This document shows positions 680-53,891 of a stretch of 64,000 bases of DNA, piece by piece; position 1 is the stretch's first letter, and the number at the start of each line of letters is the position of its first letter. The position numbers and the translations under genes were made by a program. Below the pieces are notes generated by a model, which did no database searches, had not been told where the DNA came from, and saw only the letters and a program-made list of their open reading frames with translations. This DNA comes from Zootoca vivipara (taxonomy: Eukaryota). The stretch lies in the NCBI RefSeq assembly GCF_963506605.1, contig NC_083289.1, positions 44,144,001 through 44,208,000 on the forward strand, read 5' to 3'.

Positions 680-1950
680 TGGAGCAGATCACAGATCTTA
701 TCCACAGGTTGTTATATCCCCAACAGTCTTTCCCTGGTGAACAACCTGGCTGCTGAATTCTACACCAGCTGAAGTTTCCGAACCATCACGTAAAATGCAC
801 TGCGGTAATCTAACCTAGGGGACGTGGGTGGCACTGTGGGTTAAACTACAGAGCCTAGGACTTGCCGATCAGAAGGTCGGCAGTTTGAATCCCTGCGATG
901 GGGTGAGCTGCAGTTGCTCAGTCCCAGCTCCTGCCAACCTAGCAGTTTGAAAGCACGTCAAAGTGCAGGTAGATAAATAGGTACCACTCCAGCGGGAAGG
1001 TAAATGGCGTTTCCGTGCGCTGCTCTGGTTCACCAGAAGCAGCTTAGTCATGCTGGCCACATAACCCGGAAGCTGTACGCCAGCTGCCTTGGCCAATAAA
1101 GCGAGATGAGTGCCGCAACCCCAGAGTCGGTCACAACTGGACCTAATGGTCAGGGGTCCCTTTACCTTGACAGATGACAGAAGGTAGCCTATCCCTGTCC
1201 AGATAGGGGCACAAGCTGGGCCACCAGCCAAAGCTGATGGAAGACACTCTGCACCACTGACGCCACCTGAGCCTCAAGAGACAGCAATGGATCCGGAAGA
1301 ACCCCCAAGCTGCGAACACGCTCCTTCAGAGGAAGTGGAACCCCATCATCAGCAGGCCACCTCCCATCCATCCCGTCTACGGAACCACCCACTAACAGTG
1401 CCTCAATCTTATCTGGACTGAATTCAGTTTATTGGCTCTCATCCACTCATCCATTACTGAGGTGAGACATTGGTCCAGTACATCCATTGTCACACTTGCA
1501 GAAGTGAAGGAGAAGTAGAGCTGTGTCCAAAACTCCGGATGACTGCGCTCAGCGGTTTCATGTAGATGTGAAACAGCTTGAGGGATAAGACTGAACCACA
1601 AGGAACCCTGCATTGAATGCTCCATGGGACTGAACAGCACTCCCCAAGCATCATATTCTGGAAACAACCATCCAAGTAGGATTGCAACTACCACAAAGCA
1701 GTGCTATTCACCCCCAACTCATATAGCTACTCCAGAAGGATACCATGGTTGATGGTATTGAAGGTCACTTGAGAGGTCAAGGAGAATTAACAGGGTAAGA
1801 TTTCTCTTGTTTTTCTCCCGACAAAGGTCATCATACAGTGCAACTCAAGCAGTTTCTGTGCCAAAACCGGGCCTAAATCCCAACTGAAATGCATCTAGAA
1901 AAATCAGTTTCCTCAAAGAGTGCCTGGATCCGATCTGTGACAACTGTATT
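680..1950 (-). mobile_element. Degraded L2 LINE RT fragment (interrupted by a SINE)
   Basis: WMRANKL, VRSLGVL.D..LSLEAQV and FHIYMKPL motifs with frameshifts. Confidence 0.75.
818..1168 (+). mobile_element. Sauria SINE (inserted into an L2 fragment)
   Basis: tRNA-like head with A/B boxes, shared body, ACCTTT-type tail; six related copies in the window. Confidence 0.9.
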
Positions 1951-1962
1951 AAGGCCTTAGAA

Positions 1963-2093
1963 CAGGCATCCCCAAACTCGGCCCTCCAGATGTTTTGGGA
2001 CTACAACTCCCATCATCCCTAGCTAGCAGGACCAGTGGTCAGAGATGATGGGAATTGTAGTCCCATTTGGAGGGCCAAGTTTGGGGATGCCTG
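1963..2093. mobile_element. Palindromic hAT-type MITE
   Basis: TIR CAGGCATCCCCAAACT; TSD CCTTA(G/A)AA. Confidence 0.88.
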
Positions 2094-2271
2094 CCTTAAA
2101 ACTTTATATCCTGCTGCACTCCTTACTGCAGGAGATTTCAATGCATGCAAAGGAGCAATGATTTAAGTTTATAAGTCCATTACCACCCGATATGGGAATC
2201 AGATACTTGCATTCATTGGGACGGTTTCCAAAGGTACACAATGTTAATTATGTAGGACTCTGTTTAGTTTC

Positions 2272-2580
2272 GGGACGCCGGTGGCGCTGTGGGTCGAATC
2301 CCCACGACGGGTTGAGCTCCCGCTGCTCGGTCCCAGCTCCTGCCAACCTAGCAGTTCGAAAGCACGTCAAAGTACAAATAGATAAATAGGTAAGGCAGGA
2401 AGGTAAACAGCGTTTCCGTGTGCTGCTCTGGTTCGCCAGAAGCGGCTTTGTCATGCTGGCCACATGACCTGGAAGCTGTACGCCGACTCCCTCAGACAAT
2501 AACGCGAGATGAGCGCTGCAACCCCAGAGTCGGTCACGACTGGGCCTAATGGTCAGGGATCCTTTTACCTTTACCTGTAC
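2272..2580 (+). mobile_element. Sauria SINE with a deletion in the head
   Basis: 12-bp TSD CTGTTTAGTTTC (2260 and 2581); ACCTTT tail. Confidence 0.9.
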
Positions 2581-2869
2581 CTGTTTAGTTTCATTTACAA
2601 GGCAGGGGGATTTGAGAATACTAAATGCTACTGCTGATGGAGATCAGCATGGGGAACATACGCATTTTTCAAAATATGGTGGCAACACAATTGATTATGC
2701 AGCATTTTCACAATTAGCATATAGATATGCTGCCCATGTTGAGGCCGGCTCCAATATTTACCGCTCTGACACGGACATGCTTAGTTGGCAGTAATGCCAG
2801 TTTAGAAACTTCCTCTAATAAAGATCGAGATGAGAACTTTAGTTTTGTGAGGATGCCAGAAAGGTGGTT

Positions 2870-3780
2870 GCCTGTCCATCTGGCTGTGTTTCCCCAGCCA
2901 CTCTGGGCGGCTTCCAACAAAAGATTAAAAATACATTAAAACATCAGTCATTCAAAACTTCCCTAAACAGGGCTGCCGTCAGATGACTTCTAAATGTCAT
3001 ATACAGTAGTTGTTTATCTCTTTGACATCTGATGGGAGGGCGTTCCATAGGGTGGGCGCCCCTACCGAGAAGGCCCTCTGCCTGGTTCCCTGTAACATCA
3101 CTTCTCACAGTGAGGGAACAGTCAGAAGGCCCTTGACAATGGGGCATAGCTGCAAAGTTTTCCCTTTTCTCACGAGGAAGCCTATTCAGCATAAGGGAAT
3201 TTCCCTTTAAAAAAGGGATAACTTGGCAGCTATGCAATGGGGGTGGAGACGCTCCTTCAGGTATACTGGGCCAAGGCCATTTAGGGCTGAAAAGGTCAGC
3301 ACCAACACTTTGAATTGTGCCCAGAAATGTACTGGGAGCCAATTTAGGTCTTTCAGGACTGGTCTCAGCAGTCACTCCCAGTTACCAGTCTAGCTGCCAC
3401 ATTCTGGATTAGTTGTAGTTTCCAGGTCACCTTCAAAGGTAGCCCCACGTAGAGCGCATTGCAGTAGTCCAAGCGAGAGATAACTAGAGCATGCACCACT
3501 CTGGTGAGACAGTCCGCGGGCAGGTAGGGTCTCAGCCTGTGTACCAGATGGAGCTGGCAGACAGCTGCCCTGGACACAGAATTGACCTGCGCCTCCATGG
3601 ACAGCTGTGAGTCCAAAATGACTCCCAGGCTGCGCACCTGGTCCTTCAGGGGCACAGTTACCCCATTCAGGACCAGGAAGCCCCCCACACCCACCCGCCC
3701 CGTTCCCCAAAAACAATACTTCTGTCTTGTCAGGATTCAACCTCAATCTGTTAGCTGCCATCCGTCCTCCAACCGCCTCC
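2870..3780 (-). mobile_element. L2 LINE 3' fragment
   Basis: MAANRLRLNPDKTEVL, VVHALVISRLDYCNALYVGLPLK; 3' UTR shared with the copies at 5768, 6950 and 45580. Confidence 0.85.
3145..3234. mobile_element. 90-bp hAT-type MITE (same family, opposite orientation) nested in L2
   Basis: 8-bp TSD CAATGGGG. Confidence 0.9.
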
Positions 3781-4850: not shown

Positions 4851-5766
4851 TGTGGATGCACTGGTGTGGATCCTCAGCTTCTGAAGGAGAACATACAAAC
4901 ACTATAGAATCTTGCGAGTATACATTTCCTGCCCAAATATAAACATCTATTTTGTTGTACGTTGAAACCAATTTGAGTCCACTTTATCAGGATTTGAACC
5001 GACTCTCCTCCCTCCCCCAATCAATAGTACTGGTCAATTTTTAGATGTAATGGCATACGGCAGTGGTTTTCAACCAGTGTGTTGTGGCACCCTGGGGTGC
5101 CCTGAATGATGGTCAGGGGTGCCGCAGGCAACACTGGCCTCTGTCCTTCCCTCCTCCTCTGGTGCCTTCTTGCGTCTCGGCCTCCCAAAGGCTTGCACAG
5201 CTGATCGTTGCAGCAGCCCTGACTACAAGCTCCCCAAGCAAATGGTGCCTCTGGGGCTGATCAGGGGTGCTTCCCAGGCGGCCCCTGTGGGGCAGTGAGG
5301 CACCTCTCTTTGGGGCAGAGGGGGGAGCTCAGAGCTGCAGCTGCCCAGAGGACTCCCAAGGAGAGGGGAGAGGAGAGGAGGCTGAGGGAACACTCCACAA
5401 GGGAGGGTGTTTGAAAAAGGGCGAGAGGCTGCCAACTCTGCAGGCAAGGGCTGACATAACTGGGCTCCTGATCCCCACAGGGGTGCCACAGAAAGGTCAA
5501 GGGAGCCGTGGACTCAGAATGGCATCCTGTACCTGTTCTTTTTTCCTATCCAATCTGCCCCTGTAAAATCACCCAGGCTACTTTCACAGTCTAAAAGCCT
5601 TCCTTCCCTTCCATACATTTTGCACTGTCAGGATCACCTTCCCAGGATCACAACATCTTGAATTACCTCTCACTTGCTCTCCTGATCACCATCAACCAAA
5701 ATCTCCATTAACTGCCTTAATATTACCACACATTTGATTGAAAAAGCTCCAGAGAAGCCCCACTGC

Positions 5767-11071: not shown

Positions 11072-14000
11072 CTAAAAAAAAAGAAGAGACAAAACAAGGC
11101 ATTGTTAAATGTATGCACGCATCTAATTACCAACCACCAAAACACTGTTATTCCGTCATGCATCACCAAGATACACTGGGTTGCACCCAAGTAAGTCATA
11201 TTCAGAGCAGCCCCACTGAAGTAAAGAGGTCTAGTCAAAGTATGATGAACTTGGATACAAACCAAAGGGTTTAGTGGAATAATATGAACAAAGCATATAC
11301 AGGGGTACCTCGGTTTACGAACGTAATCCGTTCCGGAAGTCCGTTCTTAAACCGAGGCGCGCTTTCCCTAATGAGGCCTCCCGCCACCAGTGCCCTTCCA
11401 CCATTCGGATTCCGTTCTTAGACCGAGGTAAAGTTCTCAAACCAAGACACTCTTTCCAGTTTTGTGGAGTTTGTAAACCAAATGGTTCTTAAACTGAGGT
11501 ACCACTTTACCGCCTTGTTTGATGTATTCCACCTTGATTTTTTATGAAAGTGCAATTTATAAATATTTAACGAAATAAACAAGGGAGCTTGCTACCCCGA
11601 GGAGACAAAAAGGTAAAGGGGGAGATATGGTGAGAAACAGTGACATTTAATATTAGTAGGATTTGTGAAAATTAATCTCTAGCCTTTTATTATTTTATAG
11701 GCATTTGTAGCCTACAACCATGCAATCCCAAAGCTGGTTGTATACAGCTCAATACAATTAAACCATGTGACATTTTGCAGCCCAGAGACATATGCAAAAA
11801 GGTGAAAAGGCAAAAAACACCTTGGAGGGCATGCTTGGGGCCACCACTGAAAAGGCCTTCTCATGCACTGCTGCCCAATAAACTACATATGGCAGCAGAT
11901 CTACACAGAGGACCTTCCCTGCAAATCTCAATACTGCGGCAGGCCTTTATGGGAAGAGGTGCTACCTCTGATATTTTATAATGTTTAAACTCTGATATTC
12001 AATAGAAGAATTCCGAAGCAAACTTAAAATACATTTGCTTTGCTTATTTTGGGCTGGTAATGCAGACTCCCGAACCAGGGGCAAGATAAGGAAGAAGTGA
12101 CAATACTGGATGAACTGCGAAACTTTCATACAGGATTGAGCCTTGAAGGACCACTGGATTCACTTACTCTCCCCTTGTGTGTAACAATTCCACCCTTTTC
12201 TGGTTTGCAGCAAAGCTCAGCTTGCCACTCTGTCACTGTGTTTGCATGTTGCTTGTGCCCAAGTATGGCTTGTGCTTGCCCTGCAAACCAGGACTAAAAA
12301 CCACATTTCAATCCATCCTCATGTTGTTTTGCAGATAATGCTTTATTATAAATATACTCGGATCTTGGCTGCATTTGACTCTAGCGCTACGCAACAGTGG
12401 GAAATCCCAGAGCACACCAACAACCTCCAAAGTACTGAATAGCTGTGCTTATTTAGAAGAGTAACAGAGCTACGATATTATACACAGCAATATACTGCAG
12501 AAAGCATGTGCAAGGGATCTAGAATACATATAATCTTTAGGGCTACAGAACAGGAAGGCCATGGCCCATGTCTTACCTTTTGTAACATACAAATAGAAGA
12601 AGTCACAGTACAGAATAGTCTGGACCACACCAGCAACGACAGCTATAAGGTCAAAGAATCCCTCAAAGTAGTAGCGCCAAATCCAGTTGATAAGGTACAA
12701 GGCACGGTACAAGCCCAAGAAGAAAAGATAGTGAGTAGTGATGGTTTCTGCCTCCCCAGTTTTACTGATCATAAAAAGTTGGGGGAGAATAGCAACAGAC
12801 TCCAAGTAGATGGAGAAGGTCCACAAGATCTGAAAGAGCAAAACAAAAATGTAAAAGTGATACCATCACTTGGCAGCTTCCACGTCTAGTATGTGTTAAT
12901 CCATATCAAGTGATCCAACTCTTTTACCTCATGCCATCCAATTTTCTTAATATTCTGTACACTTGTTGAATGATCAAAACTAAGTTTAAATCTAAAACTT
13001 TATTTTTTTCATCTCATCCCATTTACGAGTTCTGAAGGTTTGAAATTCATAAAAATTGACAATTTTGGCCTTGCTGGACTACACTAAAACCTTAAAAGCT
13101 CAATCCAGACTTGAGATACCTCAAAACTAAAAACACAAATCTCTTCAGAACTTCATGGGCTTTAATAAGATATGTCACATGATGGATTTACTTTAAATTT
13201 TAAATTTAAGAATTTTGAGAGAGATGATGGGAATAACTTTGGTAATAACAAATTCTTGCCTGCAAACCCCACACATGTAATTTTTAAACATTTTTGGGAA
13301 AAGACTGAATCATATTGTCCTAGAGAGTAGCTTCTTAGCAAAATAATGGATATTAATAGGTAAACGAGAAGAATCCAAAACATCTATAAACTGATGGCAG
13401 GTGCAGGAAAGTCTGGTATGTAATAATGTCTAATAATAATGTCTGATAATAATGTGATAGCACAATGACTTATATACAGGGCGGAAATTAGTAGTGGCTT
13501 GAAATAGTAAAAACCAGAGCAATACCTCTATGGAATTTTGTCCATGTTTTAAGTGTACTATCCTGAAATACTGTAGTATGTAGGGATACTTTTATTAGAA
13601 GTATATTATTTCACCTTGCTGTTAAATAAATGCTCAAAACATCCTACAATTTGATGGACATATTTAAAAGCAATCAACTACGAAATAATGCTTTGTAGTC
13701 TTTATAGTCTTTATACATATGTAATCTTTGTAATCTTTATGCTGTGCTATTTTGTTTAGCAACAGTATGCCCATTTGGTGTGTTTGTTTTCTTCTTTTGA
13801 AAACAAATGAATAAAAAGAATATGGGGCTGAGGCTCTCTGAACACTAAAGGAAAAGCAGAATAAAAATGTAGTAAGAAATAAGGTGGGCAGTACTGATAT
13901 ATGAAAGTTCTCCTGTGCATATCATGGATCAGCTAAAATATAATATGTATATTGTTGCCTATATTTTCCATTTTCTCGACTTTTTAACACATCCTTTAAA

Positions 14001-17000
14001 TAATTGTAGTTCTCCTTAAATTACCCAGATGGCACCAAAGACTTCTCAATTTCTATTTGAGGAACTTAAATTACATGAAGTGAAGGTCATAAGAACCAGC
14101 CCAATTTTTCAATGTTTTTGTTTAGTGAACTGAACACACCACAAATATTTGAATAACTAATTATGTTTAAATAGTTAGGATTATGGTCACTGCGTTGTTC
14201 CTCAGATATAAGGAAAGTCTACCAACACACAATGGTATGAACTGGGATCATCGGATGTACTTCTAACTTCAGTGCTGTATTGCTTCGGTTTAAGATTGCA
14301 TGAAGTGATGCTAGAGCCACCTTCTCCTGTACTCGGGACTAACACCCATTTATGCCTGAAGACCAAACTGGGCTTGAATTTTAGCATGTACCTATACATC
14401 TTCTCTCCACTACGGTTGGCTGAAATCTATCAGGCTCTCCTGAGCTGGAAGGAAGCATGAGGGTCATTCTAGTCCACCCCCTGCAATGAAAGAATCTTTT
14501 TGCCCAACATGGGACTCGAACCCCCAGTTCTGAAATTAAGAGTTTTGTGCTCCACTGACTGAACTATCCCAGATTCTTCATGCTCACGCTCACTGAGCTA
14601 TGAAGCACTCAGCTCTCTGTGGCGTACTAAACCTAATCCTACCAGCACAGAGGTGCCAATGAGCTCTCACGTGAATAATTTTGGAACCCACAGACTCATT
14701 AAACAAAAATCATTGCCTAAATACAGATAAGCAATTTGCACCGAATCACACACAGATTTTGATGACTTTTTACAAGCAAGGCTTTAGGAGAAGTTGATTT
14801 CAAAATCCCTAAAGAATTTTGTTGTTAACCCTGGTTGGGATTTTCCAGCAATATATGGGGGAGCAGCCCACCAAAGCAAAATCTAAGCCAGCCAAACAAC
14901 TAGTGCCAGCTCTTCCAAGCCACTGGACCACGCACAAATACTATATCAAACAAACTGTGCAGCTTTGAGTGAAACATCAAGTTTACAATGCAGCATAAAG
15001 AACAAAGTGTTCTGTTTTATTTCACATTTGCCCAAGTCCTCTTTACATTGTTTCAGAAGCCAATGCTTTATGAATAAACTAACCTCTAGGGGAGAGAAGT
15101 CATGATTGACAAGAAAAGATAGCCCACCAACTGGAACCACAAGGAACTCCACTCTGAATGTATCATGGTTTCCATCATAGGTAGCCTTAAATTTCATGTA
15201 GATCAGGTAGACTGTGGCATACGAGCAGGCAACGTAGATAACCTGAAAGGAAAAGACCCAGATGAGTTATCAGGCTTTTAGTCTGTGTTTCCTCCATAAA
15301 AAGCATTTTATACATACAACAAGGAACAAAAGGGATCTTTGTTGACCATTGAAGCGTGTTCCCCCTTCCTGCTCCCATTTGCTCAGCTACATTCATCAAC
15401 ATATTGCACTGTCTACAACAGGAAAGCTATTATTCATTTTCTTAGGACTGGCTCTTTTTAAACATAGAAAACGGTTACCTGGAACATAAGGAAGTACAAT
15501 TCCCATCCCCTCCCATACCTACAAACTGATTGATTTGGGTTCCTTCAGAAGTTTAAGGAAAGTGGGATCTTCGCATCAAGTTTTAATGGCTTGAAAGCAA
15601 CATAAATATTGTCAATTCTAATGCTGCCCCCCTACCTACTGCAGCTGGAACATTTGTGTGAGAAAAGGTGCAACTACAGTAAACCTGCAACATGTGCTCG
15701 CTTTACTCATGGGATCGCAACTTTAAATAGTCATTAAAACAATCAATCAATGGAGAGCAAGGGAAACCCAGTTCCCCACTGTCCATTTATTTATTTTCCC
15801 TCTACTCACACAGTGGGTTTTCATTGCTTATTGAGCTTTGAGAAGGCAGTGTGAGGGCTCTGGCAGTGTCCCCAAAGCAGCCCTCTGCCTCACTGGGGGT
15901 AGGGGCAGGTTTTTTTTGAATAAACATTTTTATTAGATATTCAAATTTAAATATCTAATCCATTTTCAAATTATACAAATATCAATTAAACAATTAATCC
16001 AAACCTTCTGCCAAATTATACAAATTTAAATTTGACTTCCCATGCTTCAGACTCAGAAAGCCTAGTCCTCTTATAGTCACTGCTTTCTAATCAATAAATC
16101 CAGATCTTATCCAATAGTCTATTAAAATCTTTCTATCTTCTTTCAAGCCCCTGAGTTTTTCGAGCAAGCAAGTTTGAGCAAACCATATATATTTCTGTGT
16201 GAATTTATGCCTATGATTCCTCTATAAATTAGCAGTCTCTTCGCACGCTGGTATCTTGCCAAGTCCGTCCAGAAATCCAAAAATCCTTCTCACAGCCAGC
16301 AGCAGCAATCTTCGAGCAGTCCCCATACATGAAATCTTTAATCCTCTGTGATGTTTGCTCCAGATCGCTCCTCAATATAGCCTTTTCAGGGGAGATTTGC
16401 CAGATCAGAACTATAAACACACATCTAATGTCTTATTTATGGCTCTCTCCCCCTTTGACTAATATCGTAGCCGGCTTTGTCTCCAGTATGGCGGAATCTA
16501 AATTATAGCTGCGTCATAACTCAAAAGTTTCTTGACAGGTTTCCAGCCGCTAATGAGATTGCTTCTCTTTGATGCCCATATTTTGAGGAATCTTTAACCA
16601 CATTCCAAACGAATCCAAAAGTACATACTTTGATTATTTATATTTTCAATTCACAGAGTTTATATATTTTTAAAAAACCATATTAATTCAATAAATTTCC
16701 CACTTTCCGATCTTGCTTGCTTTATAAATGTTGTTTACGGTAGGGGCAGTTTTGGGGGTTCCTGACTTTGCACGATTTTGGCTGTGCGCATGGACCCCTG
16801 GAACTAAACCCTTTTGTAAGTGGTGGGGCCACTGCACTCATATGAACAGTTCTGCACTTTGCAGTGGCTTTTCCCATACAATCTTTCTGCAATTTTCTAT
16901 GGGTTCCAAAATCAGTTGTTGACAAAGAAACAATAATATTTAATATAGAGCATTCTATAGCTAGCTGGTCATTAGAAGAACTACCATTTAAGAATTGGTG

Positions 17001-44783: not shown

Positions 44784-47700
44784 GAGTAGGCTAGCACCTG
44801 GCACTAGTTCATGATTCATAGCTTAACATAATAAAAGCCCTGCTTAGGGTTCTCAGGTCAGGAGCATTGCAGACCCTGAGATTGCAGGGCCCAAACCTGC
44901 GACTTTGGGGTAGTCCCTGGTGAAGGCATTCCTTGGTGATGTCATAGGGCAACCCCATGAGATGGAGGTTAATTGAAAGAAGGGAGCAGAGGAAGGCAGA
45001 CACCCCAAAGTGTACCTATGCTGTCATTTGGAGCCAGCCCGTTTGGCTGAAGCTTCAAAGGGAATCTTGCCCACTTGGAGATTCAAGCTCCCCATCCGTC
45101 ACTTGGAGGGGACCAACCAAACCTGGAGACTTCAGGCGAGACTGGAGGTCTGCCAACCCTAGCCCTGTTGGGTTAGGCCAATGGCCCATCTAGTCCAGCA
45201 TCCAGCTTTCACGGTGGTCAGTCAGATGGCTCAATGGGAAGCTCATAAGCAAGACTTGAGTGCCACAGTCCTCTCCCTCACTTGTGATTTGCAGAAACTG
45301 GCAATCGGAGGCAGACTGCCTGCCACAATAGAGGTAGAACAATACACATCATGGCTATTAGCCTTGTCCTCCATGGATTTGTCAAATCCTCTTTTAAAGT
45401 TATCCAATTTGGTGGCCATCACTGCTTGTTGTTGTTGGAGCGAATTCCATAATTCAGTTCTCTGTTGCGTGAAGAGGTCCTCTCCTGAACTTCAGCGTGC
45501 ATACATATTTCCAGTAGTCCCAAGACCTTTTAGTCTCAGCAGGCTTTTAATGTTCAATTGTCAGGGATTCTTAATGATGATTATTTATTTATTTATTTAT
45601 TTATACCCCACCCATCTGGCTGGGTTTCCCCAGTCACTCTGGGCAGCTCCCAACAGAATATTAAAAACACGATCAAACATCAAACATTAAAAGCTTCCCA
45701 ATACAGGGCTGTTTTCAGATGTCTTCTAAAAGTCAGATAGTTGTTTATTTCCTTGACATCTGATGGGAGGGCGTTCCATAGGGCGGGTGACACTACCGAG
45801 AAGGCCCTCTCGCAGTGAGGGAACCACCAGAAGGCCCTCTGAGCTGCTAGCTTTTGAGCTAATATGCTTTTACCAATAAAAAAAATTCCTTCAGTAGCAC
45901 CTTAAAAGACCAACTAAGTTTTTATTTTGGTATGAGCTTTCGTGTGCATGCACACTTCCTCAGATACACTTGAAACACTTGAAGTGTGCATGCACACGAA
46001 AGCTCATACCAAAATAAAAACTTAGTTGGTCTTTAAGGTGCTACTGAATGATTTTTTTTTATTTATGCTTTTACTACTGTTGCTAATACTATTAGTATTT
46101 CACATATTTGTTTTAACTGTATTCTGTTTTAGTACTCTTTATTGTAAGCTTGGGGATTTTTTTTTGGTAAGGAACATTTCTCAGAAAAGTTTATGACTTT
46201 TACTGTTAATATTATTATTTATGTACTCAGTTTATTAGTTGCTTGCTACATGAAGAGTCTCTAAGCAACTTAAAAAAAATAGGAGCTCAACATGCAAAAT
46301 AAAATCAGAGATCACAATAAAAGCCATACAACATTAACTTTTTTCTAATTTATCTCTCGTAAGTGCATTGTTGATGGAAGAAATGTGGTGTTGTACCTGA
46401 ACTCAACTGCATTTATAGATTCGATCTCTGTGGAGTTCAGAGCACAAAGATTATGGCCTAGTCCAGCCAAATCAAAGCTTTTCAAGGTGTCCATTCCTTG
46501 ACCTGAGTCTTCCAGAAAGCCCTGTAAAATTGACCTGGCCTGAAAAACAAACACAACGAAGATCTAACTCAGTTAAAAGCAGTTAAATTAGAAGGTCGCA
46601 ACAAGACTCTGCACCCCAGGAAGCTATGATGCAACTGATTATCATAGAATCAGGATGTCTGCACACAAAATAATGATAAAAGCGGCTTTTGCATTGAAAG
46701 TGAAAAAGAACTTCTTTTAACCCACAATGCATGTTCTAGTCAAATATTGTCCATGAATCAGGATGTCACCGAGGCAAAGAAGGACCTTAAAGGCATCACT
46801 GAAACCTGGTGGGATGAGTCTCGTGATTGGAATGTAGTAACAGAGGGATTCCTGCCAACCTAGCAGTTCGAAAGCACGTCAAAATGCAAGTAGATAAATA
46901 GGAACCGCTACAGCGGGAAGGTAAACGGCGTTTCCATGGGCTGTTCTGGTTTGCCAGAAGCGGCTTTGTCATGCTGGCCACATGACCCGGAAGCTGTACG
47001 CCGGCTCCCTCGGCCAATAATGTGAGATGAGCGCGCAACCCCAGAGTCGGTCACGACTGGACCTAATGGTCAGGGGTCCCTTTACCCTTTAATAGAGGGA
47101 TACAATCTATTTCAGAGAAATAGACCAAACAGGAAAGGAGTAGGATTAGCGTTATATGTCAGGGATGTGTATACCTGTGAAGAGATCCAGGATTTAAAAC
47201 TTCAAAGCCAAGTTGAGTGTATCTGGGTCAAAATCAAGGGAGAGAAAAATAACCGTGATCTCATTGTGGGAGTTTACTATAGATCCCCAAGCCAAACTGA
47301 GGACACAGATGATGCCTTCCTGGAACTGATGGCCAAGCATTCAAAAAGAAGTGAGATAGTAGTAATGGGGGATTTCAACTATCCTGATATTTGTTGGATG
47401 TCAAACTCAGCCAAGAGCATAAGGTCGAACAGATTCCTCACTGCCCTTGCAGACAATTTCATTGTCCAGAAAGTGGGAGAAGCAACAAGAGGATCAGCCA
47501 TTTTAGATCTGGTCCTAACCAATAGTGATGACCTGGTTACTGGGGTAGAAGTGGCAGGATCATTAGGTGGGAGTGACCATGCTCTTCTGGAGTTTATTAT
47601 ACAGCGGAAAGGAACAACCAAGCATACTAAGACTCAAATCCTAGACTTTAAGAAAGCCGACTTCAGAAAACTTAGAGAAACGCTGGGTGAAATCCCATGG

Positions 47701-50700
47701 ACAGTAATACTAAAAGGGAAGGGAGTTCATGATGGTTGGGAGTTTGTTAAAAGGGAGATATTAAAAGCACAACTTCAGGCAATACCAATGAGACGGAAAC
47801 ATGGAAGGTGCCTAAAGAAGCCAGGGTGGCTATCTAAAGAACTTTTAACTGAGTTAAGATTTAAAAGGGATATGTACAAAAAATGGAAAAAGGAGGAAAT
47901 CACCAGAGAGGAATTCAAACAAATAGCCAGAACGTGTAGAGACAAAGTCAGAAAAGCTAAAGCACAGAATGAACTCAGGCTTGCTAGAGAGGTAAAAAGC
48001 AACAAAAAGGGCTTTTATGGGTAGCAAAAGGAAGAACAAGGAAACAGTGGGGTTACTTAGGGGAGAAGATGGTGAACAGTTTGCCCGCTGCCCTCCCCCC
48101 AGCTGTAGGGCGGCTGAGTGGGAGGAGGCAGGCAGACTCCTCGGAGGCCCCGTGGAGCTTCCTGCCCTTATGGGCGACTCGCCCAACCCCTGGCGCCCAA
48201 GCGGCTTCCTCCGCCACTGGCCCGTCCCAGCCTTTTCTGCCACACGGAGCTGCTGTAGAGGGGGAAGAGACACTAGCTAGGAATGTGCTTACATCTCTGG
48301 CTCAGTAAATGAGAAGCCGCCGTCGCCACCCCATTCCCAATCTGCTGCCAGTTTTTCTATATGGCAACCATCCTACGGTAGATTCCCCTTTAGACACACT
48401 CACCTGCGTAGGGCTCCATTCTGTTTGCTGGCTGAGTGCAACAACGGTATCAATAGACCCCAAATCCAGCATTCCAATTTCAGTCTCATTTAGCACTGCA
48501 GCAATGTGCCCAAGGGAAACGATGTGGTAGCTTTTCCAGCTAGTCAGGGGGCCCGAAGACTTTAAAACAACAACAACATATTGGGGTTAGCCAGGAATTA
48601 TCCCAGGGCAGGAGGTGTGACACCTCACTTTTTTTAAAAAAAGAGAACTTTTTAAAAACAAATGATCATTTAAAATCAATAATGCGGCATAAAGTAAACA
48701 AAGATCGCAGCCACACATAAGGGGTAAAACAAGTAACATAAGTTTTTATAAAAAAAATTAAAACTAAAACTAAAACAATGGTTACTCCTATCTGCTGGGT
48801 TGACATATGGAACGTTAATGGAATTTATTCTAAGAATATAACAAAAAATCTACATCTTTTGAAATATCTGATGAAAACTGCTAAGAATTTAACATGTCAA
48901 TTATGCACACATGCCCCTTACTTTTATTTGATTTTTGGGGAGGTGTGTGTGTATAATTGTTTTTGCATTATGTATATATATATTTTAAAAAACCCCTGTA
49001 ATAATAAAATTAAAAACACAAAACAAAATAGTAAAAACTATTTCAGAGCTATGGCTGTCTTTTGGTTTGAGCTTAACAGTGTAGTTTTGCTAAAAATACC
49101 TGCTGTCTGAAGGATTATACATGGTTTTAGGACATTACAGAAGCAAGCACGTAGCTTCCAGCTGAGCACAGCTGGTGCATGCTAATCTTGATGGTAATTT
49201 CTATGGGCTGGAGAGATCACCCTCTAAGGATTTTTTTCACACAAAAAAAACCCTCAGCAAGCAGCTTTTGACTCATGACAGCAAATCATCGGATCAATCT
49301 TGCTGTTAAGATTGAAGTGGCTTTGGCTTGTTCTATGGTTGCAGCGTTCCTCCCCGCATGTAAATGGTGGCAGCCACTGGCTTTTTTTCTTTTCTTTCGC
49401 TGGCGTGGGAGCAGAAACTGTCAGATTCTAAGCACTGTGCAGCCCTGGGAATCTGTGGTTTCCTCGGAGGAGGAAGATTAGGACACCCCATCTAGGACCT
49501 TCACACTGCCAGTTAGAGATGGGTGAATATGTAAATGTTGGTTTCTCTCAGTTTCTCATCTTTCCAACCTTAAATCCAGCTCTCCACATTTCCGTGTTAA
49601 TTACATGGGAGTGTAATCTGTTCTGAGGCAAATCACAAATATTTTAAAAAACCGTTGGAGATGCCGGGGATTGAATTTGTGACCTTCTGCATGCAAGGCA
49701 AATGTTCCACCACTGAACTACAGCCCTCCCACATCTAGGACTCAGCTACATTAGCCATGTTACAACGCTATAACTGTGTTATAAACATGCAACACCAGAT
49801 GGCACTGTAGAGCACAAAACTTTGTCTATGCGATTCTACATGGAGTTTTTCTTTTTCTTTTGTTATAACGATTTAATTTATGACTTATTTATAGTGTGCT
49901 TTTCCCCCTGGGTGTAGATCCAGCCCTAGTTTGGCCTTAAGTCGACATTCAACCTATTGTCATAGATCTAGGATACCAGAGTCTGTTAGGGAATGGCAGA
50001 AATGAATAAATTGTAGTATTCAGATAATATTTGGGATATGGAGGGACAATACAAGCAGCAGAACTGTGCCAGACAAGAAATTCCAGGCCAGGCTAGCTAG
50101 TTGAAGAGCCATTAAGGATCACTGGGGAGCCCTAAGAGCAATTGGCAATGCAAAAAGCTATCCTTCCCTGCCTGTTCGAAGGAGTGGACAGAGACAGGAG
50201 GTTTGGGAGGCTGCCAAGATGATTGGGGGGGATGTGATGTCACAGGAAAATTTGCCCTTTTTGAAATGTAAAGGTGTTCTGGGAACAGGAAGGAGGAAGG
50301 ACCATCTTGGCACTGGCTGGAGGAGCCTGCCCCGAGAGACTGGGAGTGATGGCTGGCTGCTGCTATGGGCCCCATGAATCTTGGAGGGGAGAGACTGTGG
50401 GAGAGATTCATGAGGTCTGTGAGGGGGAATTCTGTCAGGAGGGTTCGTTCTGACGTGGTAGAGCTGAGGAGAGCCGAGAACTCTCAGTATATGCTCTAAG
50501 GTTTTGAATCGCAGAAGACTGTTAAAAATAGACAAGCCACAGTCCCACACGATGTTCACAAGAAAAAGTATCCTCAGAGGGAATACTTTGACAGGAAAGG
50601 GCAGTAGTGGTTCCGAGGCAATGAGGATTTTGGGGTCTGTAAGGGACCCAGGTGGCGCTGTGGTTAAACCACTGAGCCTAGGGCTTGCTGATCAGAAGGT

Positions 50701-53700
50701 CGGCGGTTCAAATCCCTGTGACGGGGTGAGCTCCCGTTGCTTGGTCCCAGCTCCTGCCAACCTAGCAGTTCGAAAGCACGTCAAAATGCAAGTAGATAAA
50801 TAGGAACCGCTACAGCGGGAAGGTAAACGGCGTTTCCATGTGCTGCTCTGGTTGTCATTCTGGCTACATGACCTGGAAGCTATACGCCAGCTCCCTCGGC
50901 CAATAATGCGAGATGAGCGCACAACCCCAGAGTCGGTCACGACTGGACCTAATGGTCAGGGGTCCCTTTACCTTTACCTTTAAGGGAAACAGCCCAATTA
51001 AAAACCTAAGTCCCTGAAGTGTGTGTGGAGAAATCTGATCTATGGAAGATGTGTAAAAGTAACCTTAAGCCTGAACCCCTCTGTCGCTCGTGATTCATTC
51101 TCCATTGGGGATTTCACCTAAGAGAAAGGGAAACAGAGGCCTGGTGCAGCGGTGCTAGGGAGAGAGAGGGCCAATGCGCCATTGCACCCTCCCTCCATCG
51201 AAAGCTTTAGGCATAAATATGTGTCCAATAAATCATATTTCCTAAAGACGCTAGATTCTGGGGTGCCTCGATTTTCCCAGCGGAAACACAACCCTGGGTT
51301 AGCGCTGGGAACCCCTGTGGAATCTTGCTGCTGCTCAGCAGAGATTGGGGGTATTTTATGTAACAGTATTTTATGATGCATCAAAGTGGGAATCACTCAA
51401 CCCCACTAACCACACTCAAGCTCAAGTAAATGCACATCTAAGGAGGTTTGGTTAAAAAAACAACAACAACTCTTCATAGCTACCTCCTTAGCTTTCTCTT
51501 TCAGCGCAGCAAGCTGAGAGGTATCGAAATGGACCACGGAGCCAAGGATTTCCACAGTCTTGGCGAAAGTGCCTGGATCCATGCAGGCCAGCTCTTGAGC
51601 TGACCAGAACATGTTGGCTTCTGATAATTTCATAATCTCCTCTGAGGAAGGTGCCATGACGTCTGCGCAATCTGGTACCGAAGAAGATATATTTGCAGAG
51701 AGGTTAATCACCGACACAAACTCATTGACTGTAATGCTAAGTGGTAATTAGATTGTAATGCTAATCTTTTGCAAGATTACTGCCACGTTGGGGGGGGGTG
51801 CAGCCACAACTTCCATTACAAGGCAGGTTACTGCCACAGTGCAGATGTTTCATTTGACACTTCTGTTTCTCTGGGGGGGGGGGGCTCATCACCTTAGACT
51901 TCCTGTTACAGGGCTCCATGTGCGAGAGTTTTTGCCTTGGATATCCCAAGCGCATTTGGATTTCACCTATTGCCTACATTGAATAAGTTAGGTTGAGATA
52001 GCCTTGGCCAGGAATGGGAGACCTCTGGCCCAGGGGGAAATTTGGCCCTCCAGGCTTTCCTACCTGGCCATTGGGACACTACCCAGGCCACACCATCCTA
52101 TATAATAAAGTCCTAGTGTCTCTGTGTCCAATCCCTGTGTCCGTGGGTTTGCGCTACTGCACATGTGCCCCACGGGCAGCCGTTGGGACTTGGAGCGCAG
52201 AGACACGAGGCATTCGGCTCCCTCCCTCCCTCAGTTCAGTCAATCAGTCCGCCAGTGCGGACGGGACGGTCTGCTCTGGCCGGTTGGTCGGCCGGTGTTG
52301 GATGGAGGGTCCCGTCCGCCTCACCTGCTCTCTATGGAATGTACTGGGGGCGGCTGCCGAGTGGGAGCGAGGACTCTATGGGCGCAGGCAGTGCCGCTAC
52401 TGCCGCTGAGGAAAGGTGAGAAGGAGGGAAGCCGCGGCGCTGGCGGGTGGGTTGGGGGGTGGGGGTGGGTTGGCTGTGGTGGGTGTGTTAAAAGCTGGTG
52501 AGGGGATGAAGAGAGGCCAAAGAAGTGCCAGGGCTTTGGGGAGGGAACGTGTGCGTGCGTGCGTGCGTGCGCGCGCCCTCCCTCCCTCCCACGCGAGCCA
52601 GCAAGCGAGAGGCGCGCTCGCGAGGGTTTTTACAAATGTTTGACAACATATGTTCTAGCGCCCGTTTATTTAACGGGCTCAATGACACTAGTTAAGTATA
52701 ATTGTTTAAGTGTACACTGAAATGGAAAATAACTTTGTATGTGTATTGCACAAGGTGTAACATTGTAAAAGTCCATTGAAGCCAGGCATGCCAAGTAGGA
52801 GGGGAGCTAGGGGGGCAGCCCCCCCCAAATTTCCAGGCCCCCCAATTTCAATAATGGGCTGGGCCCCCTCAAAGTTCCGTGGTGGCTGTGCACAAGTGAC
52901 ACTGCGTCATGCGCAAGGGACATCAGCACGCCATGGAGTATGCGAGCATGCTGCAGGGGGTGCTGATGTCCTGTGTGCATGCTGGGGGGGGTGCACACAT
53001 GGCATGTTGATGTCGCTCAACCCCCGGCCCCCTCAACCACAGGGGCAAGGCAGCACGAGTGATTGAAGCTAAGCAAGGGCAGCAGAGACCCTTACAATTG
53101 ATAATTAACTAAGAATGTACTTATCTCTGCTCCTCTGTCCTGAGGTGTTTAACTCACACAAAATGGAGATTTGCAACTGAGTATCTTTCTCATCTGATCT
53201 AAAGTCAGTCTTTGTTCTCCCTGTGAAAGCAACCAAGGAGGATGGTGTGCTAATGACTCCCTCTCCAGGAACACAGCTTGAGGCTGGAATGCAGGCTGTG
53301 TGCAAAAGGACAGAGCTTTGGTTTTTCAGTTCTGGATGAAGTAATTTCATATTTCTAATATGCTGTACCTGTGCTTGCCTGTACCTATGCAACTATTTGG
53401 ATGTAACGTTGTTTTGAGTGTTTTGGAACAAGTTCCGTTAGTAAAACTTTTGAACCATACTTTTTAGACTGGACAATTTTTATTTCAAGGAGAGTCAGTT
53501 TTCATTTATCCTAATGCTTCCAAAAGTGCAATATTAATAGTTACAGGTAGGTAGCCGTGTTGGTCTGAGTCGAAGCAAAATAAAAAAAAATTCTTCAGTA
53601 TCTGAAGAAGTGTGCATGCACACGAAAGCTCATACCAAAATAAAAACTTAGTTGGTCTTTAAGGTGCTACTGAAGGAATTTTTTTATTTTGCAATATTAA

Positions 53701-53891
53701 TAACTGCACTACACCCTCTCTCCAAGCCACACCCTTCACTGGTCCTGCTTTAGATTAGATTAGATTTATTTATTGTCATTGTGTAATTACAATGAAATTG
53801 GATGAATTTGTAACGTACTTCAACATTTTTGCCTGGCTGGAAACGTATCCTTACACTCTGATAATGCTTGTCTGCATGGAAGATAAAGGTG

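What the first reader, a model, noticed from the sequence alone, without database searches (positions are those of the whole stretch)
45874..46063. Hammerhead ribozyme core on the OTOA sense strand, embedded in a Penelope fold-back
Seen: the minus strand at 45967-45930 reads GUAU CUGAGGA A GUGUGCAUGCACAC GAAA GC UC|AUAC. That is a complete hammerhead core with an extra A after A9, a palindromic stem II, a 4-bp stem I and only an AGCU palindrome as stem III. It sits in an OTOA intron in the transcribed orientation, in one arm of an ~80-bp inverted repeat whose other arm has lost the CUGA box. Established: Penelope-like elements carry minimal hammerheads thought to work as dimers. Inference: the pre-mRNA holds a latent self-cleavage site (between 45934 and 45933) that the antisense arm could sequester, and the long hairpin could be an ADAR or Dicer substrate.
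Basis: partly seen in the sequence, partly recalled or inferred. Interest (0 to 1): 0.7.

Follow-up and report, generated by a model that had tools for sequence, protein, structure and literature searches.

The report
Zipped hammerhead in Penelope insertion stump
The small self-cutting RNA motif is really there, in an intron of a lizard inner-ear gene, but it is one of about 19,000 identical copies left by a known jumping-gene family, and its mirror-image neighbour is predicted to zip it shut, so it is likely inert and ordinary.

Summary
The 38-nt core (45967-45930, minus strand) lies sense to OTOA in a 2-kb intron, in one arm of an 84/83-bp inverted repeat. The unit is a 190-bp insertion (45874-46063) with an 11-bp target-site duplication. 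Its arm ends long copies that encode reverse transcriptase, a Cys linker and GIY-YIG endonuclease: a Neptune-type Penelope-like element. The 34-nt core occurs 19,097 times in this genome, so a copy here is expected by chance; OTOA holds three. Minimal core, inverted arms, TSD and heavy editing of lizard Penelope RNA are all published. The antisense arm is transcribed first, and the hammerhead fold costs 32-45 kcal/mol in context, so cleavage is unlikely. Three RNA runs showed no OTOA reads, so this copy is untested. Six family reads from another locus look hyper-edited. One small oddity: this copy lacks the tail that 34 of 35 other inverted pairs carry at one end. The scan noted the same thing before in other genomes. 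Verdict: ordinary passenger.

The parts
45863..45873 (+). left copy of the 11-bp target-site duplication
   Evidence: direct repeat with 46064-46074
45874..45977 (-). arm 1: 3' part of the pLTR, sense to OTOA, carries the whole hammerhead core; no tail
   Evidence: matches the 3' end of long RT/GIY-YIG copies; 1 extra base near 45904 against the family
45930..45967 (-). minimal type I hammerhead (stem I 4 bp, C3 at 45963, extra A, palindromic stem II, 4-nt palindrome for stem III, C17 at 45934)
   Evidence: 19,097 exact copies of the 34-nt core
45959..45980 (.). hairpin loop and inversion junction; holds the 5' strand of stem I and C3-N7; a 9-nt tandem duplication (45966-45974 / 45975-45983) marks the joint
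45981..46063 (+). arm 2: inverted, 5'-truncated pLTR end starting at G8; antisense in the OTOA transcript and transcribed first; no tail; 2 changes against the family at 46049 and 46052
46064..46074 (+). right copy of the target-site duplication
   Evidence: a related species' contig leaves the window sequence exactly here
46399..46542 (-). OTOA exon upstream of the host intron (aa 922-969 of P0001)
   Evidence: tblastn 100% over 48 aa
44214..44387 (-). OTOA exon downstream of the host intron (about aa 970-1015 of P0001)
   Evidence: tblastn and AG/GT ends
53540..53689 (+). second copy of the same family in another OTOA intron, core antisense to OTOA, inverted tail, 13-bp TSD (53527-53539 / 53690-53702)

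Best explanation
This is a 190-bp, head-to-head stump of a young and very abundant Penelope-like retroelement (Neptune type) in an OTOA intron, and its hammerhead is a passenger that is predicted to be locked inside an 84-bp hairpin and is likely inactive. Likely origin (inferred): the element's RT/GIY-YIG protein cut both target strands about 11-12 nt apart. It primed short cDNAs from both ends on the pLTR RNA. The two cDNAs stopped after 83-104 nt and were joined at a short homology just 5' of the core, leaving the TSD. In the OTOA pre-mRNA the antisense arm is made first and would capture G8 to C17 and the 3' strand of stem I as they emerge. The likely fate of the RNA, where OTOA is expressed, is A-to-I editing and removal with the intron, not self-cleavage.
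For: Shown: the arm is the 3' end of copies with 778- and 783-aa open frames holding RVT_1 and GIY-YIG (2 of 2 fetched). 19,097 exact cores, control 0. 34 of 40 listed ORF-stretch hits are identical over 251 bp, so the family is young. Head-to-head pairing dominates: among the first 100 cores, 14 '-+' neighbours against 1 '+-' within 2 kb. TSD present. A related species' contig runs 46 letters past 46064 on letters unlike the insert (1 of 1 such run laid). Computed: the hammerhead fold costs 32.3 kcal/mol when the core has just been made and 45 kcal/mol later, against 4.1-7.3 without the antisense arm. Published: the same minimal core with low or no activity unless dimeric (PMC4209133); protein-assisted cleavage, both strands cut and extended, no RNA-seq ends at the cut site (PMC11167929); inverted 5'-truncated arms, tail and TSD (PMC8557442, PMC3846280); more than 40,000 hyper-edited sites in lizard Penelope (PMC5625713).
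Against: Inactivity rests on nearest-neighbour folding; cleavage was not assayed. Editing or a helicase could open the hairpin. OTOA does contain a second sense core without an antisense arm, 33.4 kb upstream (fold cost only 5.1 kcal/mol), so a partner exists in principle. This copy has no tail at either end, unlike 34 of 35 other inverted pairs, so its making or later repair was not fully typical. The two-sided priming step is inferred from an in vitro study of another clade (Poseidon).
Confidence: 0.9

Rival explanations
1. A conditional self-cleavage site in OTOA pre-mRNA: editing or the element's own protein opens the hairpin, and the core dimerises with the upstream sense copy or with an abundant family transcript, cutting the intron and lowering or altering OTOA mRNA.
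For: All core residues are intact. A second sense core lies in the same gene. Family RNA is abundant (1,013-3,664 reads laid per run from about 6% of each run). The Anolis Poseidon hammerhead cleaves when its protein is added (PMC11167929).
Against: 32-45 kcal/mol barrier. The modelled active dimer is -11.1 against -36.0 kcal/mol for the competing stem II duplex. In the edited-looking reads the changes hit A15.1 (6 of 6) and A14 (2 of 6), which would likely disable the core. The tail and ORF start, where the protein binds in PAc, are absent here. No pile-up of read ends anywhere on the family sequence in 3 of 3 runs (weak, these libraries do not capture ends well).
Confidence: 0.04
2. Same identity and same inactivity, but the inversion arose by self-priming or template switching of one cDNA, or by copying an antisense template, rather than by priming from both cut strands.
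For: A 9-nt tandem duplication at the junction. Several subfamilies carry a natural 7-nt inverted match between the pLTR 5' of stem I and G8-stem II (seen). PMC3846280 argues for self-priming on an antisense template.
Against: 34 of 35 inverted pairs carry the tail on exactly one end, with 12-16-nt duplications in 31 of 35. This fits two separate initiations at the two start sites described in PMC11167929.
Confidence: 0.25
3. A miniature inverted-repeat DNA transposon or a miRNA precursor that resembles a hammerhead by chance.
For: Perfect hairpin; Rfam miRNA-precursor models score E 3e-9 to 1e-4.
Against: All Rfam hits are below gathering score and reflect pairing only. The arms continue into an RT/GIY-YIG ORF in long copies. 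Spacer and length differ in every fold-back (145-218 nt between landmarks in the 15 examined), unlike a MITE family.
Confidence: 0.01

Closest known systems
Minimal hammerheads (min-HHR) of metazoan Penelope-like elements (Cervera and de la Pena 2014, PMC4209133; parts 1-2 of 4 of the text read)
   Same: Extra nucleotide between 9 and 10.1, G10.1-C11.1, long helix II, 4-5-bp helix I, palindromic 15.2-16.2, place in the pLTR, thousands of dispersed single copies, opposite-strand pairs 100-700 bp apart; reported in turtle and snakes.
   Different: Lacertid family with 19,097 exact copies (the paper gives about 4,000 in coelacanth and about 9,000 in Xenopus); here the second arm is cut inside the core. 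Supplementary alignments were not seen, so an identical squamate motif may already be listed.
EN+ Penelope-like elements, Neptune/Nematis type, with an inverted 5'-truncated copy, optional 30-40-bp tail and TSD (PMC8557442 and PMC3846280; passages read)
   Same: RT, a CX2-5CxxC linker and C-terminal GIY-YIG in long copies; inverted pLTR ends; TSD; tail on one end in 34 of 35 other pairs.
   Different: This copy is extremely short and has no tail at either end; Neptune against Nematis was not resolved by a tree.
PAc, Poseidon element of Anolis carolinensis (Frangieh et al. 2024, PMC11167929; parts 1-2 of 4 read)
   Same: Lizard PLE with a pLTR hammerhead, two RT start sites that define the tail, AT-rich targets.
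   Different: A different clade (Penelope/Poseidon lacks the Cys linker, PMC8557442); no activity was measured for the present family.
Hyper-edited Penelope repeats of lizard brain (Porath et al. 2017, PMC5625713; passages read)
   Same: Penelope is the massively edited LINE-class repeat in lizard (over 40,000 sites).
   Different: That study does not deal with this locus or with hammerhead residues in the passages read.

Membership tests
min-HHR of metazoan PLEs | Intact C3-A9 and G12-A15.1 boxes, U16.1-H17 | tested here: met
min-HHR of metazoan PLEs | Extra nucleotide after A9, G10.1-C11.1, long helix II, 4-5-bp helix I, palindromic 15.2-16.2 | tested here: met
   against PMC4209133
min-HHR of metazoan PLEs | Lies in the pLTR of a PLE | tested here: met
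   same sequence follows the ORF stop in L062 and in L023, L009, L028
min-HHR of metazoan PLEs | Self-cleavage as a dimer or with protein | not testable with these tools
   folding only; no read-end pile-up in 3 RNA runs, weak
Rfam hammerhead families | Covariance-model hit | tested here: not met
   0 hammerhead families among 17 matches at E<=10; expected for a motif without stem III
EN+ Penelope-like element | Single ORF with RT and C-terminal GIY-YIG in long copies | tested here: met
   RVT_1 E 1e-10 and 3e-12, GIY-YIG over cut-off, 2 of 2; both copies seem to lack the 5' end
EN+ Penelope-like element | Inverted 5'-truncated pLTR with TSD | tested here: met
EN+ Penelope-like element | Optional 30-40-bp tail at one end | tested here: inconclusive
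   absent at both ends of this copy; present at one end in 34 of 35 other pairs; described as optional (PMC8557442)
Neptune/Nematis clades | CX2-5CxxC motif between RT and EN | tested here: met
   C-X4-C-X2-C before GIY-YIG in both ORFs; definition from PMC8557442
Neptune clade proper | RT phylogeny; match to Repbase or Dfam entries | not testable with these tools
   no reference set held; the passages read of bioRxiv 10.64898/2026.07.22.740005 name Neptune and Poseidon as the groups found in vertebrates
Conserved (domesticated) intronic hammerheads of amniotes (recalled, no call) | Single copy, conserved across species, canonical stems | tested here: not met
   19,097 copies; apparently absent at this site in a related species; no stem III

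The most novel reading that the evidence does not exclude
Fold-back and editing act as a safety catch on some 19,000 dispersed hammerheads: sense-strand intronic cores without an antisense arm cut host pre-mRNA when the element's protein is present and are purged, while zipped copies like this one survive, and A-to-I editing of A14/A15.1 disables those that open. OTOA, with one zipped and one unzipped sense core, would be a direct test case.
Probability: 0.06. Interest if true: 0.55.

Novelty: new member of a known kind. Interest (0 to 1): 0.08.

Why it matters
As a single locus it matters little: it is one of roughly a thousand tight fold-backs (rough estimate) and 19,097 identical cores. The family is a good substrate for an open question, whether metazoan PLE hammerheads ever cleave in vivo, because it is young, very abundant and transcribed. 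A genome-wide orientation test in introns would answer whether hosts feel these ribozymes.

Tried and rejected
Rfam scan: no hammerhead hit; miRNA-precursor hits rejected as generic hairpin matches. Mesothelin Pfam search of the genome did not reach the window (13 matches elsewhere); OTOA was then verified by homolog search and tblastn. A pattern meant to count fold-backs gave 3,117 matches but is confounded by native pLTR sequence: only 13 of 30 fetched loci (11 distinct, all from the first 7.5 Mb of one contig) are real fold-backs, so only a rough figure of about a thousand is given. Sequencing-run search: no RNA holder listed. Three raw RNA runs of one study had zero depth on the OTOA exon and on the unique intron (20 of 29 bins empty), so nothing could be learned about this copy's splicing, cleavage or editing. 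A same-species contig (X7, depth 5) stops exactly at 46064, while X2 and X3 run 29 nt into the insert: a weak hint of an empty allele, not used as evidence. Core conservation across 113 copies (N7 the only freely varying position) is biased by how the loci were picked and is only suggestive. Lunse et al. (RNA Biol 14:1499) was not held; it is known here only through PMC6765202 (passages). No supplements were read. The landmark missed the window's own copy because of its extra base; that copy was read.

Full report
Observation. The minus strand at 45967-45930 reads as reported: stem I of 4 bp, C3 at 45963, an extra A after A9, a 14-nt palindromic stem II, G12-A15.1, a 4-nt palindrome where stem III would be, and C17 at 45934. 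The inverted repeat has arms 45875-45958 and 45981-46063 with a 22-nt spacer. It folds at -127 kcal/mol, z -19, better than 200 of 200 shuffles. The second arm starts at G8, so it is truncated rather than mutated. Rfam gave no hammerhead family among 17 matches.

Host gene. One exon's frame finds 12 proteins, 10 of them named otoancorin, all squamate; the best is from a lacertid. tblastn with that protein maps OTOA on the minus strand, with exons 46542-46399 and 44387-44214 either side of the insert; the 5' exons lie in the next 20 kb of the contig. The core is therefore sense to OTOA, about 430 nt into a 2-kb intron.

What it is. The arm has 568 first-look candidates in the genome; 40 were scored and gave 47 matches at 95-100% identity. 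The 34-nt core occurs exactly 19,097 times (9,480 + 9,617; reversed control 0). That is about 0.85 per 64 kb. The window has two, one in each orientation, and a third family copy lies in the 5' part of OTOA. Longer copies extend upstream into a GIY-YIG frame. Of 30 loci fetched by an ORF stretch, 2 were open over the whole 1.5-kb flank; both were fetched and hold 778- and 783-aa frames with RVT_1 and GIY-YIG. In L062 the frame is followed by the same hammerhead pLTR end and a tail. A C-X4-C-X2-C motif precedes the endonuclease, the mark of Neptune/Nematis in PMC8557442 (passages). 34 of the 40 listed hits to a 251-bp ORF stretch are identical, so the family is young. In a related species a contig follows the right flank to 46064 and then runs 46 letters unlike the insert; two same-species contigs enter the insert, and one stops at 46064 (4 of 20 holders laid). 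This fits a recent insertion; polymorphism is only hinted.

The architecture is the family's norm. Among the first 100 cores of one contig, neighbours within 2 kb are head-to-head 14 times and tail-to-tail once. Of 30 loci from a junction pattern, 13 (11 distinct) are tight fold-backs; the raw count of 3,117 is confounded and not used. Of 35 distinct inverted pairs in other loci, 34 carry the tail at one end, 1 at neither, none at both, and 31 have a shared flanking word of 12-16 nt. Inverted 5'-truncated copies, one-sided tails and TSDs are described in PMC8557442 and PMC3846280 (passages). The window copy departs in one detail: no tail at either end and an 11-nt TSD. Its right end has two changes against the family, and the TSD start shares 5 nt with the tail start. 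So the tail was likely skipped or lost through that short homology (inference).

How it was made (inferred). PAc protein cuts and extends both DNA strands and starts at two RNA sites that bound the tail (PMC11167929). Two short cDNAs, one per strand, joined at a short homology would give a head-to-head stump with a TSD. I take this reading partly from an earlier scan note and tested only its tail-asymmetry prediction. Self-priming (PMC3846280) remains a rival; a 9-nt duplication at the joint fits either.

How it behaves (computed, not measured). On the OTOA strand the antisense arm is transcribed before the core. Forcing the hammerhead fold costs 32.3 kcal/mol at the moment the core is complete and 45 kcal/mol afterwards; without that arm it costs 4.1-7.3. 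Even two free cores prefer a 14-bp stem II duplex (-36.0) to the double-hammerhead form (-11.1) in this model. Published minimal cores do not cleave as monomers and cleave poorly as dimers (PMC4209133); the PAc core needs protein, and no RNA-seq ends were found at its cut site. Against this reading: OTOA holds a second sense core 33.4 kb upstream with no antisense arm (fold cost 5.1 kcal/mol), so a partner exists in principle.

RNA. Three raw runs of one study (about 6% of each read) gave 3,664, 1,621 and 1,013 reads, 99% running on into other sequence, so they come from other copies. The OTOA exon and unique intron had zero depth and no pile-up of ends was seen. This copy is untested. Six reads in one run carry a 39-nt stretch in which 8 (4 reads) or 10 (2 reads) of 17 T are C, with no other change against the family sequence, in two non-nested patterns (compared by eye). 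That is what A-to-I hyper-editing of hammerhead-sense RNA would give, and it hits A15.1 and A14. The reads lack this copy's extra base, so they come from another locus, and no DNA of the same animal was checked. Heavy editing of lizard Penelope is already published (PMC5625713, passages).

Comparison and verdict. Every element is known: minimal PLE hammerhead, inverted stump, TSD, editing. Four literature searches were aimed at the family and the mechanism, not at this locus, so I do not claim the lacertid family is unpublished. The scan has earlier notes of the same kind in other genomes (unchecked, not used as support). Interest 0.08.

Noticed in passing
L064 about 5310-5450 (G000:C14, core C3 at 44223407), OTOA 5' part: Third family copy in OTOA: sense strand, core boxes intact with a G-U at 10.1-11.1, no antisense arm, ending about 20-30 nt before a splice acceptor; a better candidate for latent cleavage than the flagged copy (fold cost 5.1 kcal/mol).
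   Followed up: partly
window 53540-53689: Second copy, core antisense to OTOA, with an inverted tail joined straight to the core and a 13-bp TSD.
   Followed up: yes
35 inverted pairs in L002-L096: Tail on exactly one end in 34 of 35 pairs, never on both; duplications mostly 12-16 nt. The window copy is a rare tail-less exception.
   Followed up: partly
RNA run X21 laid on 45850-46600: Six reads with 8 or 10 T-to-C changes in 39 nt, touching A15.1 and A14 of the core; source locus unknown.
   Followed up: partly
window 45966-45983 and L064: Of 101 distinct cores, only the two sense copies in OTOA share the same slipped sequence 5' of stem I; probably independent slips at a repeated 6-mer, not explained.
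   Followed up: no
window 46064, run X7: A same-species contig ends exactly at the TSD start, as a heterozygous empty allele would cause; depth 5, weak.
   Followed up: no
window about 45580-45850: A very high-copy repeat (SINE-like; the name Sauria SINE is recalled, no call) lies just left of the insert (depth table).
   Followed up: no
window 47026-48024 (+): 332-aa open frame of a LINE-type endonuclease (Exo_endo_phos_2) in the next OTOA intron, antisense to OTOA; CR1-like by recall.
   Followed up: no
window 12470-15266 (-): Exons of an ER lumen protein-retaining receptor (KDEL receptor) gene downstream of OTOA.
   Followed up: no
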